A DNA stretch of 64,000 nucleotides from an uncultured Methanosarcinaceae archaeon (GTDB taxonomy: Archaea; Halobacteriota; Methanosarcinia; Methanosarcinales; Methanosarcinaceae). Both the position numbers and the translations under genes were made by a program. The number at the start of each line of letters is the position of its first letter. The stretch's first letter is position 1. The stretch is from positions 448,001 through 512,000 of the forward strand of contig CAWJYV010000008.1 of NCBI GenBank assembly GCA_963847185.1. Direction: 5' to 3'. Of the stretch, positions 34,985-62,542 are shown piece after piece. Below the pieces are notes generated by a model. It saw nothing but the letters and a program-made list of their open reading frames with translations, did no database searches and had not been told where the DNA came from.

Positions 34985-36094
34985 TTACGAATGAAATACC
35001 GATATTATATCATCGGGTCTTGCCCGCCTTGTGATTCCACTTATAGGGTCCTTTATTCCTGATAGATTATTGGAACTTCCATTCAGGATCATCAGATTAG
35101 CTTTATTCCCCTTTTCAATAGAACATGTGGAGTTTGGCCCCATTACAAAAGAACCATTAAGTGTGCAAATTTTAAATACTTGCCTATCATCAATTGAAAA
35201 TATTTTGGACATGAATTCCATTTCAGCAAACATATTTACAGAATTTAACATTACATTATCTGTTCCTGCAGCTACCCTGATTCCAGCATCAAGCATTTCT
35301 GCAATAGGTGCCATTCCAGCTCCTGTAATTAAGTTAGACCTGGGACACACAACAACGGGAATTCCTGCTTCAGCCACGTTATCAAGATCTTTTCTTGTGG
35401 CGTTTGTCATGTGAATAAGCAGATCAGGCTCCAAAGATAGTGCTTTTTCTATATCGCTCCTGTCTTTTTCTCCTGCATGAATTGCAAAGAATTTCTTCAG
35501 GTCTCGCGTATATGTAACGATTTCCTCAAGTAATTCAATGTCCAGATCATTTGTTCCGCTCATTCCAAGCCCTCTGGAATGTAGAAGAACTCTTTTTACT
35601 TCGGCCAGAACTACCTGAAGAGGTAGCTCGGGTTCTGCAGGTCTACCCAGTACCATAGATTTCAGTTCGAGTCCTTCAAGAGCTTTATTTAGGGCTGCAA
35701 CTCCTACAACCCCTCCTTCTCTAAAATCTGCAAAAGCACAGGTACCGGTTTCTATCATATCAAATAAGGACCTTCTTATGCATTCGATCAGGGTTTTATA
35801 TGGCGTTTCTCCAAGAATCCTGTGTTTTAACCCGTCAGGAGGTTTTACAAGTGAGTCAAGATCTCTCTGGATCTGAAAGTTAGAAACTTTTCCCAGAGGA
35901 GGATCTTTCAATACCGAGTCTCCAAGATGAGTATGGGCATTGACAAAACAGGGAGCTATTATATTGGAAGAATATGTATGCTCCTCTCCAATTTCCGTAA
36001 CTATTCCGTTTTTTACGCAGATATATCCTTCAATAGGTTCCAGTTCTGGGCCTGCAATTATTGTTCCGGGAATCATCTGTTCAGTGCCGTACAT
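34985..36094 (-). CDS. Metal-dependent amidohydrolase / deaminase
   Basis: NAHTHLGD, IHAGE, CPRSN, GTDN. Confidence 0.88.
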   Translation of the reverse strand: MYGTEQMIPGTIIAGPELEPIEGYICVKNGIVTEIGEEHTYSSNIIAPCFVNAHTHLGDSVLKDPPLGKVSNFQIQRDLDSLVKPPDGLKHRILGETPYKTLIECIRRSLFDMIETGTCAFADFREGGVVGVAALNKALEGLELKSMVLGRPAEPELPLQVVLAEVKRVLLHSRGLGMSGTNDLDIELLEEIVTYTRDLKKFFAIHAGEKDRSDIEKALSLEPDLLIHMTNATRKDLDNVAEAGIPVVVCPRSNLITGAGMAPIAEMLDAGIRVAAGTDNVMLNSVNMFAEMEFMSKIFSIDDRQVFKICTLNGSFVMGPNSTCSIEKGNKANLMILNGSSNNLSGIKDPISGITRRARPDDIISVFHS

Positions 36095-36454
36095 ATATAC
36101 GCACCTCTGCTAATTATCAAACGCCTGTGCTCAGTTGGTGGATGACCAAACATATGCATAATATATAACTTTTCCTTCAGATTATCTATAATACATTGAT
36201 TTTGGAATTAAACTACTGGAAATTTTCTTTCCGTATTTTAAATCTCTTTTTGACGATGCAATGAGTTTTGTCCTTTTACTGGTCTCATACATCTGTATCC
36301 TTTCTCTGTTATTTCTCAGGTATACTTTTTCTTTCTTATTACAAAATATTGCTCTTTAATGACTTTCATATGGCTATAGTTTAAACATGTTTATTTGAAA
36401 TCAAAGATTTTTTTCAGTTACTTTTATATATCATTAAGGATTTATATGTCCTTC

Positions 36455-36630
36455 ATCGCATTGTATAGGTCCTTGCACGAGATAATGGGATAACCTGACT
36501 GTGAGTGTACAGACAACCCCAATGCGGTACATCGGTAGTGTGACATTGCCTGGCACGAGGGTAACTGAAAGGGACTGCGGAAAACCAGAGGATGAACTTT
36601 CGGAGTTAGTGCGTCCGGGCTACAACACTA
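36455..36630 (+). ncRNA. Two-hairpin H/ACA-type pseudouridylation guide RNA (candidate)
   Basis: TTTATATA box at 36423-36430. Hairpin 1 ATCGCATTG/CAATGCGGT followed by ACA (36529-31). Hairpin 2 GCCTGG/CCGGGC followed by ACA (36622-24). GA/TGA K-turn-like motifs in the apices; pockets lie 14-15 nt from ACA. Confidence 0.7.
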
Positions 36631-36818
36631 TTCTCTCCTGCTTTCAAAAATCATATCTGTCAATCATATTTGTCAGTTACTTTACTAATCATTTTGGTAT
36701 CAATTTCATAGTGGTTTTACCAATATCTGATTATATTTTTGCTACTTATGGATATTCTTCCCCCTCTCCGCGCTGATTCGTTATTGTTTTATAGAATACT
36801 TAGAAAGATATAACACAT

Positions 36819-37136
36819 ATGTCCTTTGAAGAGGCAATAAAAGACCTTAATTCAGCTGTTCTTGTTGATATCGAGGTTACACCCGGCTCCAAGTCAGTCT
36901 CGGTTCCTAGTGGTTATAATGAATGGCGTAAAAGAATTGAAGTAAAATTAACAAAAAATGCTCAAAAAGGAAAAGCTAATGAACAGCTGGTCGAGTGCCT
37001 TGCCAAACTCTTCGGAATCAGCAGTTCGGATATTGTTATCAGCAGTGGAGCGACAAGCAGTAAGAAATCTTTATTGATAAAAGGAATCTCTTACCAGCAG
37101 GCGGTTTCTATTTTTGCAGTCTACTTAAGGAGTTAA
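36819..37136 (+). CDS. DUF167 / YggU family protein
   Basis: IEVTPGS, GKANEQL, SGATSSKK. Confidence 0.88.
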   Translation: MSFEEAIKDLNSAVLVDIEVTPGSKSVSVPSGYNEWRKRIEVKLTKNAQKGKANEQLVECLAKLFGISSSDIVISSGATSSKKSLLIKGISYQQAVSIFAVYLRS

Positions 37137-37326: not shown

Positions 37327-37770
37327 TTGCAGAATAACGTGGTTGATCCTGAAATTTACAGAAAAAGGCTTGAAAGGATTGAAGAGCTACTCGCCGAACT
37401 TTTAGAGTATTCAGAAAAAGGAGCAATCATTATTGTGGAGGGAAAAAGAGATATTTTTTCATTGAAAGGGCTTGGAATCGAAGGTAACTTTGAACTTGCA
37501 ACAAGACATTCTCTTTTTAATTTTTCTGAGGAAATTGCAAGACGTGGCAGTGAAGTAATCATACTTACGGATTGGGACAGGCGAGGTGACATACTTGCTG
37601 CAAAGCTTTCAGAATACCTCAAAAGTTTTGGTTTGAAACCTGAGCTTCAGATCCGAAATAAACTGAGGCTTATTTCTCAAAAAGAAATTAAAGATGTGGA
37701 GAGCCTGTATACCTATGTTTCGAATCTAAGATTGAAGGCCGGCTCAAGTTTTGACGAAGATATTAAGTGA
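37327..37770 (+). CDS. Small TOPRIM-domain protein
   Basis: [23 protein letters not shown]. Confidence 0.88.
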
Positions 37771-62467: not shown

Positions 62468-62542
62468 GCTCCGATAGTGTAGCTCGGCCAATCATTCAGG
62501 ACTCTCACTCCTGCGACTGGGGTTCAAATCCCCATCGGAGCA
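62468..62542 (+). tRNA. tRNA-Glu (CTC)
   Basis: GCTCCGA/TCGGAGC acceptor stem, CAGGA-CT CTC AC-TCCTG anticodon arm, GGTTCAAATCC T-arm; upstream TTTATA boxes. Confidence 0.96.

What the first reader, a model, noticed from the sequence alone, without database searches (positions are those of the whole stretch)
36423..36635. Two-hairpin H/ACA guide RNA, absent from the ORF track, predicted to target 23S rRNA helix 69
Seen: a GC-richer island with its own TATA box and two stem-loops, each followed by ACA. In hairpin 2 the pocket strands are GAGGGT (36557-62) and TAGT (36607-10), with the 3' strand starting 15 nt before ACA and a GA...ATGA K-turn-like apex. In hairpin 1 the pocket is TATAG / AACCCC, starting 14 nt before ACA. 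Known: archaeal H/ACA guides use a K-turn/K-loop plus an ACA 14-16 nt from the target U, and archaeal H69 reads approximately GGGGGUAACUAU(A/G)ACCCUC. Inference: hairpin 2 pairs ACUA-psi-N-ACCCUC (E. coli U1917 equivalent), and hairpin 1 may guide the U1911 equivalent with an imperfect fit. The overlapping 91-aa ORF is probably spurious.
Basis: partly seen in the sequence, partly recalled or inferred. Interest (0 to 1): 0.72.

Follow-up and report, generated by a model that had tools for sequence, protein, structure and literature searches.

The report
Two-hairpin H/ACA pseudouridylation guide RNA
This unannotated stretch is a small guide RNA gene that very probably directs pseudouridine formation at functionally central sites of the large ribosomal RNA; it belongs to an already known archaeal guide-RNA family, so it is real but not a new kind of thing.

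Summary
Window 36455-36632 (+) is a GC-richer island with a TATA box, two stem-loops each followed by ACA, GA/UGA K-turn motifs and internal pockets at the stated coordinates.

It is conserved in 35 of 41 related genomes. A model of hairpin 2 hits 67 of 151 genomes of the phylum. Stems covary while pocket letters stay fixed. Cbf5, Nop10, Gar1 and L7Ae are all encoded.

A second register reaches U1915.

Hairpin 1 does not fit U1911. It fits the A loop (own U2575 = E. coli U2555, 12 bp) and own U2606 (= E. coli U2586, 9 bp).

Architecture and targets match Haloferax sR-h45 and motifs 2-3 of Afu-4/Pf7 (papers read). The literature is already split between these same two sites for the hairpin-1 homologue.

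The 91-aa ORF is spurious.

Verdict: a new member of a known kind. Targets are predicted, not mapped. Transcript evidence is weak, from metatranscriptome contigs only.

The parts
36422..36431 (+). TATA box (TTTTATATAT), 26-35 nt upstream of the first stem; predicted transcription start about 36453-36457
   Evidence: A T/A-rich box at the same distance from the CGCATTG stem start in the 24 loci of the genus. A metatranscriptome contig of a relative begins to match at 36455. The start site itself is inferred.
36457..36531 (+). Hairpin 1 (SL1). Lower stem 36457-63 / 36520-26. Pocket 5' strand 36464-71 (UAUAGGUC). Upper stem 36472-78 / 36505-12 with one bulged base. K-turn GA 36479-80 opposite UGU-GA 36500-04. 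Apical stem-loop 36481-99. Pocket 3' strand 36513-19 (ACAACCC). ACA 36529-31.
   Evidence: Covariation in all stems. Pocket and K-turn letters are invariant in alignment A1. Model R1 finds it directly upstream of hairpin 2 in 36 of 36 and 25 of 25 loci.
36532..36547 (+). 16-nt linker; 36534-36541 can pair with 36625-36632
   Evidence: The MFE fold pairs them.
36548..36624 (+). Hairpin 2 (SL2). Lower stem 36548-53 / 36615-20, plus C36554-G36613 and C36556-G36611. Pocket 5' strand 36557-63 (GAGGGUA). Upper stem 36564-66 / 36604-06 and 36567-71 / 36597-601 with a GG bulge. K-turn GA 36573-74 opposite GAU-GA 36591-95. Apical stem-loop 36575-90. Pocket 3' strand 36607-10 (UAGU, within invariant GUUAGU 36605-10). 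ACA 36622-24.
   Evidence: 14 of 20 pairs changed on both sides, 0 of 500 shuffles as high. Model R2 hits 67 of 151 genomes of the phylum. AGGG and GUUA are present in 61 of 61 homologues.
36625..36650 (+). 3' tail. 36625-36632 is the 3' strand of the closing helix. T-rich in most of the genus (CACTATTTT...). The 3' end is not determined.
   Evidence: Relatives' contigs stop matching at 36644-36649, which marks the end of conservation, not a mapped RNA end.
36501..36776 (+). 91-aa ORF overlapping the RNA: spurious
   Evidence: No Pfam family at E <= 0.01. In 24 genus genomes the frame stops at codon 4 in 6, and runs 45-91 aa in the other 18, diverging right after the RNA.

Best explanation
Window about 36455-36632 (+) is the gene of a roughly 180-nt, two-hairpin archaeal box H/ACA guide sRNA transcribed from its own TATA promoter. 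Each hairpin has a lower stem, a pseudouridylation pocket, an upper stem with a K-turn, and an ACA box. It would assemble with L7Ae (K-turn), Cbf5 (lower stem and ACA), Nop10 and Gar1. The two pocket strands pair with 23S rRNA on both sides of an unpaired U-N, and Cbf5 isomerises that U. Hairpin 2 targets the loop of helix 69: own U1947 (E. coli U1917) by the canonical rule. By analogy with Haloferax sR-h45 it probably also targets own U1945 (E. coli U1915), through the register GUUA:UAAC. Hairpin 1 targets domain V: own U2606 (E. coli U2586), the proven target of the Haloferax homologue, and/or the A-loop own U2575 (E. coli U2555), the site reported for motif 2 of Afu-4. The RNA is the local form of the Afu-4 / Pf7 (HgcG) / sR-h45 family and lacks the first of three hairpins. 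Shown here: sequence features, conservation, covariation, complementarity, and the presence of the protein genes. Inferred: transcription, RNP assembly and the modifications themselves.
For: Anatomy at the stated coordinates. Conservation in 35 of 41 genomes including the own one. Stems covary: 12 of 46 pairs on a structure-blind MAFFT alignment, 0 of 500 shuffles as high. On model-fitted alignments, 9 of 18 pairs (SL1) and 14 of 20 (SL2) changed on both sides, with 91.9% and 94.9% of cells paired against 23-53% when slid. Pocket, K-turn and box letters are fixed: across 61 homologues AGGG 61/61, GUUA 61/61, GAGGGU 54/61, GUUAGU 58/61, GUCC 58/61, AACC 60/61, and an ANA box after both hairpins in 61/61. 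SL1 lies directly 5' of SL2 in 36/36 and 25/25 loci. Targets in the own 23S: ACUA-UG-ACCCUC (4+6 bp, 15 nt from ACA); GGUUGU-UC-GCCUAU (6+6 bp, 16 nt); GGGUU-UA-GACC (5+4 bp, 14 nt). E. coli numbering was checked on rrlH. The three target sequences are identical in the 8 genomes whose 23S I read at these sites (own, 3 other genera of the family, 4 of family f14). Cbf5 458.7 bits, Nop10 83.7, Gar1 38.6, L7Ae 91.7, each over its cut-off. Literature: sR-h45 SL1 makes Psi2605 and SL2 makes Psi1940 and Psi1942, shown by deletion and rescue (PMC7075261, abstract and sections 3, 6, 8). The Haloferax hairpins are homologues of Pf7 stems II and III (PMC2584109, section 24). A GC-rich family of the phylum (f14, 12 of 13 genomes) carries the same SL2 pocket, GAGGGUU / GUUAGUG, with a longer spacer. 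RNA-library contigs from 4 studies cover only 36455-36649 or parts of it, some ending in adapter sequence.
Against: No transcript evidence from this organism itself. The laid runs are metatranscriptome contigs, mostly of relatives, and the tool warns they do not prove transcription. No Rfam family matches. HgcG RF00064 scores 12.4 bits elsewhere in the genome, though that model exceeds its cut-off in none of 14 control genomes, Haloferax included. The single-sequence fold is no more stable than shuffles. Complementarity alone is weak statistics: shuffled rRNA reached the helix-69 score in 50 of 300 trials, the U2586 score in 67 of 300 and the A-loop score in 4 of 300. The 3' pocket strand of SL2 gives only 4 bp. 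The rRNA targets do not vary, so no guide-target covariation could be tested. I could not compare directly with the published Afu-4, Pf7 or sR-h45 sequences.
Confidence: 0.87

Rival explanations
1. It is an H/ACA-shaped RNA, but the predicted rRNA sites are wrong or it does not catalyse. It could be an orphan guide for another RNA, or a pairing chaperone in 50S assembly.
For: The helix-69 and U2586 complementarity scores are reached by 50 and 67 of 300 shuffled rRNAs. The SL2 3' strand pairs only 4 bp. tRNAs and mRNAs were not scanned. The papers themselves stress that predicted H/ACA targets often fail (PMC2377435, section 27).
Against: Pocket letters are fixed across about 20 families while the stems change. 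The homologous Haloferax hairpins were shown by deletion and rescue to make exactly these pseudouridines (PMC7075261, section 6). Spacing to ACA is 14-16 nt at all three sites.
Confidence: 0.08
2. It is a structured 5' leader or K-turn regulatory element of the downstream DUF167-Toprim genes, not an independent guide RNA.
For: A DUF167 gene and/or a small Toprim-domain gene follow on the same strand in most loci of several families. One low-depth contig (3.2) runs from 36594 to 36761.
Against: About 187 nt of AT-rich, non-conserved spacer separates it from the ATG at 36819. ANA boxes and rRNA-complementary pockets have no role in a leader. The 8 loci of family f14 show neither neighbour within about 1.5 kb. 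In other families a third H/ACA hairpin, not a promoter, lies upstream.
Confidence: 0.03
3. The conserved element is the 91-aa protein-coding ORF, or the 40-aa ORF on the minus strand.
For: An open frame exists at 36501-36776.
Against: No Pfam match. There is a stop at codon 4 in 6 of 24 genus genomes, and variable ends otherwise. Conservation stops at about 36650, in mid-ORF. Substitutions are compensatory in RNA stems.
Confidence: 0.01

Closest known systems
[quoted passage not shown]
   Same: Two hairpins in the same order. The 3' hairpin guides helix 69 (Psi1940 and Psi1942 = E. coli 1915 and 1917). The 5' hairpin guides Psi2605 (= E. coli 2586). K-turns sit in both upper stems and ANA boxes follow both (PMC7075261: abstract, sections 3, 6, 8). 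A GC-rich family of the same phylum has the same SL2 pocket, GAGGGUU / GUUAGUG, and the shared SL1 core GUC / AACCC. That this family is haloarchaeal is my inference.
   Different: The linker here is 16 nt, against 56 nt in Haloferax. Here U1917 sits in the canonical unpaired U-N position with three extra invariant base pairs at the foot of the upper stem, whereas Haloferax leaves UAUG unpaired. The SL1 pocket here (AUAGGUC / ACAACC) also matches the A loop over 12 bp, which the GC-rich family's pocket does not. The sR-h45 sequence itself was not available for alignment.
Afu-4 (Archaeoglobus fulgidus) and Pf7 / Pab40 / HgcG (Rfam RF00064, Thermococcales), three-hairpin H/ACA sRNAs
   Same: Motif 3 guides the E. 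coli U1915 equivalent in helix 69. Motif 2 has been assigned either to Afu 2601 or to Afu 2632 (PMC2377435, section 27; PMC4652768, section 14). By the papers' numbering and the constant 31-nt spacing these are own U2575 and U2606, exactly the two best sites of SL1 here. Other families of this phylum carry a three-hairpin form with SL1 and SL2 as hairpins 2 and 3.
   Different: No first hairpin here. A promoter stands in its place, and a model of that hairpin finds nothing in the own genome at E <= 1, while it finds 3 of 3 control genomes. The Rfam HgcG model does not match.
Eukaryotic snR191 (yeast) / U19 (human) H/ACA snoRNAs
   Same: One guide RNA directs the two pseudouridines of the helix-69 loop that correspond to Haloarcula 1956 and 1958 (stated in PMC2584109, section 24).
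   Different: Eukaryotic H/ACA snoRNAs have an H box, bind Nhp2 and lack K-turns. Homology was not tested here.

Membership tests
Archaeal box H/ACA guide sRNA | Hairpin made of lower stem, internal pocket and upper stem | tested here: met
   Both hairpins. 94.1% of cells paired and 12 pairs with compensatory change on a MAFFT alignment, 0 of 500 shuffles as high. Wider sets.
Archaeal box H/ACA guide sRNA | [quoted passage not shown] | tested here: met
   At the sequence level only. GA (36479-80) faces UGU-GA (36500-04), and GA (36573-74) faces GAU-GA (36591-95). G40, A41, U63, G64, A65, U154, G155 and A156 (own numbering, window minus 36439) are invariant in 30 sequences. The distal G:A is the 9th layer in SL1 and the 11th in SL2 (the 9th if the two lowest pairs open). 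The rule is taken from PMC7075261, section 3.
Archaeal box H/ACA guide sRNA | ANA (usually ACA) box just 3' of the lower stem | tested here: met
   ACA at 36529-31 and 36622-24. An ANA box follows both hairpins in 61 of 61 homologues: ACA 41-43, AAA 9-10, AUA 8-11.
Archaeal box H/ACA guide sRNA | Bipartite complementarity of at least 8 bp to a target, flanking an unpaired U-N, 15 +/- 1 nt from the ANA box | tested here: met
   SL2: 10 bp, 15 nt. SL1: 12 bp at 16 nt, and 9 bp at 14 nt. Caveat: shuffled rRNA reaches these scores in 50, 4 and 67 of 300 trials respectively.
Archaeal box H/ACA guide sRNA | Cbf5, Nop10, Gar1 and L7Ae encoded in the genome | tested here: met
   All four are over their curated cut-offs. 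The Gar1 ORF is intact at 89 aa.
Archaeal box H/ACA guide sRNA | Expressed as a stable small RNA | tested here: inconclusive
   Contigs of four metatranscriptome studies cover 36455-36649 or parts of it, some ending in adapter sequence. They come mostly from relatives, and contigs cannot prove transcription.
Archaeal box H/ACA guide sRNA | Pseudouridine at the predicted sites, dependent on the RNA | not testable with these tools
   Needs chemical or sequencing-based mapping in wild type and a deletion strain.
Rfam HgcG (RF00064 = Pab40/Pf7) | Covariance-model score at or above the gathering score (77 bits) | tested here: not met
   No hit at E <= 10 in 36300-36800. The best hit in the whole genome is 12.4 bits at another place. 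The same model is over its cut-off in 0 of 14 control genomes, including Haloferax volcanii, so it is too narrow to decide homology.
Afu-4 / Pf7 / sR-h45 orthologous group | A helix-69 guide hairpin directly preceded by a domain-V guide hairpin (E. coli 2586 and/or 2555) | tested here: met
   Order and adjacency hold in 61 of 61 loci. The papers' assignments are in PMC7075261, PMC2584109, PMC2377435 and PMC4652768.
Afu-4 / Pf7 / sR-h45 orthologous group | Alignable sequence with the published members | not tested
   The published sequences are in figures and supplements that I could not read.

The most novel reading that the evidence does not exclude
The pocket of hairpin 1 may be a two-register guide serving two rRNA sites 31 nt apart in the peptidyl-transferase region. 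These are the A-loop U2555 (12 bp, canonical geometry) and U2586 (9 bp). The letters needed only for the A-loop register (AUAG in the 5' strand, A/C-C in the 3' strand) are kept in the Methanosarcina-type lineages: AUAGGUC in 39 of 61 homologues and ACAACC in 37 of 61. Both were lost together in the GC-rich, Haloferax-like lineages, which keep only the U2586 core GUC / AACCC. This would settle the old disagreement over motif 2 of Afu-4/Pf7 by saying both assignments are right. In addition, a closing helix formed by the linker and the 3' tail, starting right after both ANA boxes, may be a lineage-specific structural element of the RNP or of 3'-end formation.
Probability: 0.3. Interest if true: 0.55.

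Novelty: new member of a known kind. Interest (0 to 1): 0.36.

Why it matters
Helix 69, the A loop and U2586 lie at the subunit bridge and the peptidyl-transferase centre. These are the few rRNA sites pseudouridylated across all domains of life. The locus gives Methanosarcina-type methanogens, which are genetically tractable, a defined and probably dispensable guide RNA for testing what these pseudouridines do. No Rfam model covers it. My searches found no paper describing an H/ACA RNA in Methanosarcina (only the open-access library was searched). The comparative set also offers a clean test of whether one pocket can serve two distant sites. It shows too how the three-hairpin ancestor lost its first hairpin in at least this family.

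Tried and rejected
- Rfam at gathering score on the whole window found only a tRNA at 62468-62542. At E <= 10 on 36300-36800 it found only a chance Ysr209 match outside the element. RF00064 over the whole genome found nothing relevant.
- Single-sequence folding gave no signal (z = 0.04).
U1911 would be paired and the free dinucleotide would be AA. The arms give -1.4 and -7.4 kcal/mol, but no U-N is left unpaired.
- Guide-target covariation was attempted in genomes with variant pockets (G073, G118, G041, G078, G088). It was uninformative, because the 23S targets are identical wherever found. G088 gave no 23S match, and G078 gave only a fragment without these motifs.
- Naming the GC-rich family f14 as haloarchaea was not possible. 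Its 80 listed rows held no haloarchaeon.
- I searched for a stand-alone copy of the first hairpin of the three-hairpin form in the own genome. None was found at E <= 1. The control found 3 of 3, but those control genomes are near-identical to rows used to build the model.
- In the metatranscriptome runs, parts of the stretch without cover mean nothing. The contig ends at 36644-36649 mark the end of similarity to relatives, not RNA ends.
- The Gar1 match flagged '1 TGA inside' is only the gene's own stop codon.
- Papers PMC124276 (Tang 2002) and PMC149196 (Rozhdestvensky 2003) are not held. What I say about Afu-4 therefore comes second-hand from PMC2377435 and PMC4652768.
- Supplements that may bear on the homology and target claims were not requested, because supplements are closed. 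These are Additional file 8 of PMC2584109, Figure S1 of PMC2377435 and Figures S10-S17 of PMC4652768.
Full report
WHAT IS THERE

Upstream is an amidohydrolase gene (34985-36094, minus strand) and downstream a DUF167 gene (36819-37136, plus strand). GC is 0.48-0.51 over 36450-36649 against 0.22-0.33 on either side. I use 'own numbering' n = window position minus 36439.

Hairpin 1 (SL1):
- Lower stem 18-24 / 81-87.
- Pocket strands 25-32 (UAUAGGUC) and 74-80 (ACAACCC).
- Upper stem 33-39 / 66-73 with one bulged base.
- G40-A41 facing U61-G62-U63-G64-A65, then a small apical stem-loop.
- ACA at 90-92.

Hairpin 2 (SL2):
- Lower stem 109-114 / 176-181, plus two further pairs.
- Pocket strands 118-124 (GAGGGUA) and 168-171 (UAGU).
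- Upper stem 125-127 / 165-167 and 128-132 / 158-162, separated by a GG bulge.
- G134-A135 facing G152-A153-U154-G155-A156, then an apical stem-loop.
- ACA at 183-185.

In both hairpins the arrangement is 5'-stem-GA-stem and stem-NNU-GA-stem. This is the K-turn layout with the three-base bulge on the 3' strand. That reading rests on the general K-turn consensus, which I recalled rather than tested.

IS IT MORE THAN CHANCE?

The single sequence does not fold better than shuffles (z = 0.04), and Rfam has no match. The comparative evidence is strong.

- BLAST finds the 201 bases in 35 of 41 genomes, the own one included. That is 23 of 24 other genomes of the genus at 89-98% identity and 11 of 16 genomes of five other families of the order at 70-75%.
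- In a MAFFT alignment of 30 of these, the pocket strands, the GA/UGA motifs and the ACA boxes are invariant or nearly so, while the stems change.
- My structure pairs 94.1% of 1341 cells. Twelve of 46 pairs changed on both sides (0 of 500 shuffles as high). When the 3' partners are slid, 28.7-43.6% pair and 2-7 pairs show such change.
- Two covariance models, R1 for SL1 and R2 for SL2, extend this. R2 hits 67 of 151 genomes sampled across the phylum at E <= 0.01 under strict filters. It hits 12 of 13 genomes of a GC-rich family that had scored 0 of 8 in that run, once laxer filters applied (E from 1.5e-4 to 0.41, one full-length hit each).
- On model-fitted alignments, which lean towards the structure, SL1 has 9 of 18 and SL2 14 of 20 pairs changed on both sides. 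Cells paired are 91.9% and 94.9%, against 23-53% when slid. For SL1 the count of such pairs was reached by 97 of 500 shuffles. Its other measures were reached by 0 of 500.
- An exact gapped pattern of the SL1 pocket and K-turn occurs in at least 120 species records. Of these, 80 are listed, named Methanosarcina, Methanolobus, Methanosalsum, Methanothrix, Methanoperedens, ANME-2, Methanocellales and others.
- SL1 lies directly 5' of SL2 on the same strand in all 36 and all 25 loci examined.

THE PROTEIN PARTNERS AND THE ORF

Cbf5 (458.7 bits), Nop10 (83.7), Gar1 (38.6; ORF intact) and L7Ae (91.7) are all encoded.

The 91-aa ORF has no Pfam match. In the 24 genus genomes it stops at codon 4 in six. 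In the rest it runs 45-91 aa and diverges as soon as the RNA ends. It is spurious.

TRANSCRIPTION

A T/A-rich box (own TTTTATATAT, 36422-36431) lies 26-35 nt before the first stem throughout the genus. This fits an archaeal promoter with a start near 36455. The spacing rule is recalled.

Four metatranscriptome runs from four studies hold contigs that cover only 36455-36649 or parts of it. Several are short, end in adapter sequence, and have word depths of 20-49. The single contig that continues downstream has depth 3.2. These are mostly relatives' sequences, and contigs cannot prove transcription. I count this as a weak hint only.

TARGETS

I scanned the own 23S, and in the second run a stretch holding the 16S, for U-N flanked by complements of the two pocket strands. 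E. coli numbers were set by locating the same motifs in rrlH of K-12.

SL2:
- The best canonical site is ACUA-U-G-ACCCUC in the helix-69 loop.
- The invariant hexamer GUUAGU also allows GUUA:UAAC. This leaves UAUG free and puts own U1945 (E. coli U1915) 17 nt from ACA.
- GUUA is the part kept in 61 of 61 homologues. UAGU is kept in 58 of 61.
- The three base pairs at the foot of the SL2 upper stem (ACU/AGU) never vary where the rest of that stem covaries. This would fit a double role as guide letters, which is inference.
- In Haloferax, the homologous hairpin makes both pseudouridines from an unpaired UAUG (PMC7075261, abstract and section 8).

SL1:
- The best site is GGUUGU-U-C-GCCUAU in the A loop. 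The target is own U2575 = E. coli U2555, with 6+6 bp including one G.U, 16 nt from ACA.
- Second is GGGUU-U-A-GACC. The target is own U2606 = E. coli U2586, with 5+4 bp, 14 nt from ACA, abutting the upper stem.
- U1911 does not fit (see Tried and rejected).

Statistically the complementarities are modest. The best score in shuffled rRNA reached the A-loop score in 4 of 300 trials, the helix-69 score in 50 of 300 and the U2586 score in 67 of 300. The weight therefore lies on the fixed pocket letters and on the homologues studied at the bench. The three target sequences are identical in all 8 genomes whose 23S I read at these sites, so guide-target covariation cannot be used.

WHAT IT IS A MEMBER OF

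- Haloferax sR-h45 is a 200-nt double stem-loop H/ACA RNA. Its SL1 makes Psi2605 and its SL2 makes Psi1940 and Psi1942. This was shown by deletion, rescue and in vitro assay (PMC7075261, abstract and sections 3, 6, 8).
- Position 2605 is the third U of UUU, after m3U2603 (section 6), which corresponds to own U2606.
- Grosjean et al. call the two haloarchaeal hairpins homologues of Pf7 stems II and III. They note a long spacer and no stem I (PMC2584109, section 24).
- Pab40/Pf7 is Rfam HgcG (PMC4652768, passage in section 5).
- For motif 2 of Afu-4 and Pf7, Muller et al. report that Afu 2601 (= Pab 2647) had been proposed. They argue instead for Afu 2632 (= Pab 2678), the site modified in Haloarcula (PMC2377435, section 27).
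- Toffano-Nioche et al. keep L2601 'as shown by Tang et al.' (PMC4652768, section 14).
- The two sites are 31 nt apart, as are own U2575 and U2606 and E. coli 2555 and 2586. Assuming no insertion between them, my two SL1 sites are the same two sites disputed in the literature.

A GC-rich family of the phylum (f14; hairpin GC 0.54-0.77; probably haloarchaea, which is inference) has the same SL2 pocket (GAGGGUU / GUUAGUG) and a 26-87-nt gap between the hairpins. Its SL1 pocket keeps only GUC and AACCC. That is enough for U2586 and not for the A loop.

Across 61 homologues, GUCC is kept in 58 and AACC in 60. The longer AUAGGUC and ACAACC, needed only for the A-loop register, are kept in 39 and 37. 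U2586 therefore looks like the universal job of SL1. The A-loop register is an addition, or an ancestral feature, kept in the Methanosarcina-type lineages, this one included. Which is used here cannot be decided without mapping.

HOW THIS COPY DIFFERS

- In families f3, f11, f12, f19 and f21 a third H/ACA hairpin precedes SL1 where this genus has its promoter.
- A model of that hairpin finds nothing in the own genome, but finds it in 3 of 3 control genomes. This family thus carries a two-hairpin form, like Haloferax.
- The Rfam HgcG model does not detect the locus. It also fails in all 14 control genomes, so this says little.

VERDICT

This is a real, well-conserved box H/ACA guide RNA gene. 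It is a new member of a known family rather than a new kind of element.

The open point with some interest is whether SL1 serves one or two sites. Searches of the open-access library found no paper describing an H/ACA RNA in Methanosarcina. Subscription papers and supplements were not searchable.

Noticed in passing
window 36534-36541 with 36625-36632: The linker just after the first ACA pairs with the tail just after the second ACA (8 bp, GGUAGUGU / ACACUAUU), enclosing hairpin 2. The helix recurs with other letters elsewhere: GGAUAGUGC/GCAUUAUCC in another genus of the family (-14.4 kcal/mol, 0 of 200 tail shuffles as good), GGUC/GACC in family f11, and GGUG/CACC or UGGC/GCCA in f3. It is absent where the linker is 0-4 nt (f12, f19, f21). 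Function unknown.
   Followed up: partly
loci L028-L033 and L038-L063 upstream of SL1; own genome: Other families carry a three-hairpin RNA. The extra 5' hairpin has a conserved pocket (GAGGAC... / ...GCAAA) and its own ANA box. This genus has a promoter there instead, and no copy of that hairpin was found anywhere in the own genome.
   Followed up: yes
window 36819-37136 and 37327-37770, and the matching places in related loci: A DUF167 (YggU) gene and/or a small Toprim-domain gene (147 aa) follow the guide RNA on the same strand in most loci of several families of the phylum. They do not in the 8 loci of the GC-rich family. This is a conserved neighbourhood with an rRNA-modification guide. 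The meaning is unknown.
   Followed up: partly
window 36564-36566 with 36604-36606: The three lowest pairs of the hairpin-2 upper stem (ACU/AGU) never vary in 30 distinct sequences, while the pairs above them covary. G36605-U36606 belong to the invariant GUUAGU, which can also pair with UAAC of helix 69.
   Followed up: partly
loci L049-L063 (family f11): Both boxes read AAA instead of ACA in most members of this family. ANA is allowed by the papers' definition.
   Followed up: no
G010:C41:8185-8270 (locus L027): One genus genome shows a second, partial copy of hairpin 2 about 100 bases downstream of the first, next to a run of N. This is probably an assembly artefact.
   Followed up: no
window 62468-62542: A tRNA gene, the only Rfam match of the window at gathering score.
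   Followed up: no
locus L045 (G073): One genus of the family has a degenerate SL1 pocket (AAAGUUCC / AGAUAACC). It weakens both candidate pairings although its 23S targets are unchanged. This may be decay or retargeting of hairpin 1 in that lineage.
   Followed up: partly
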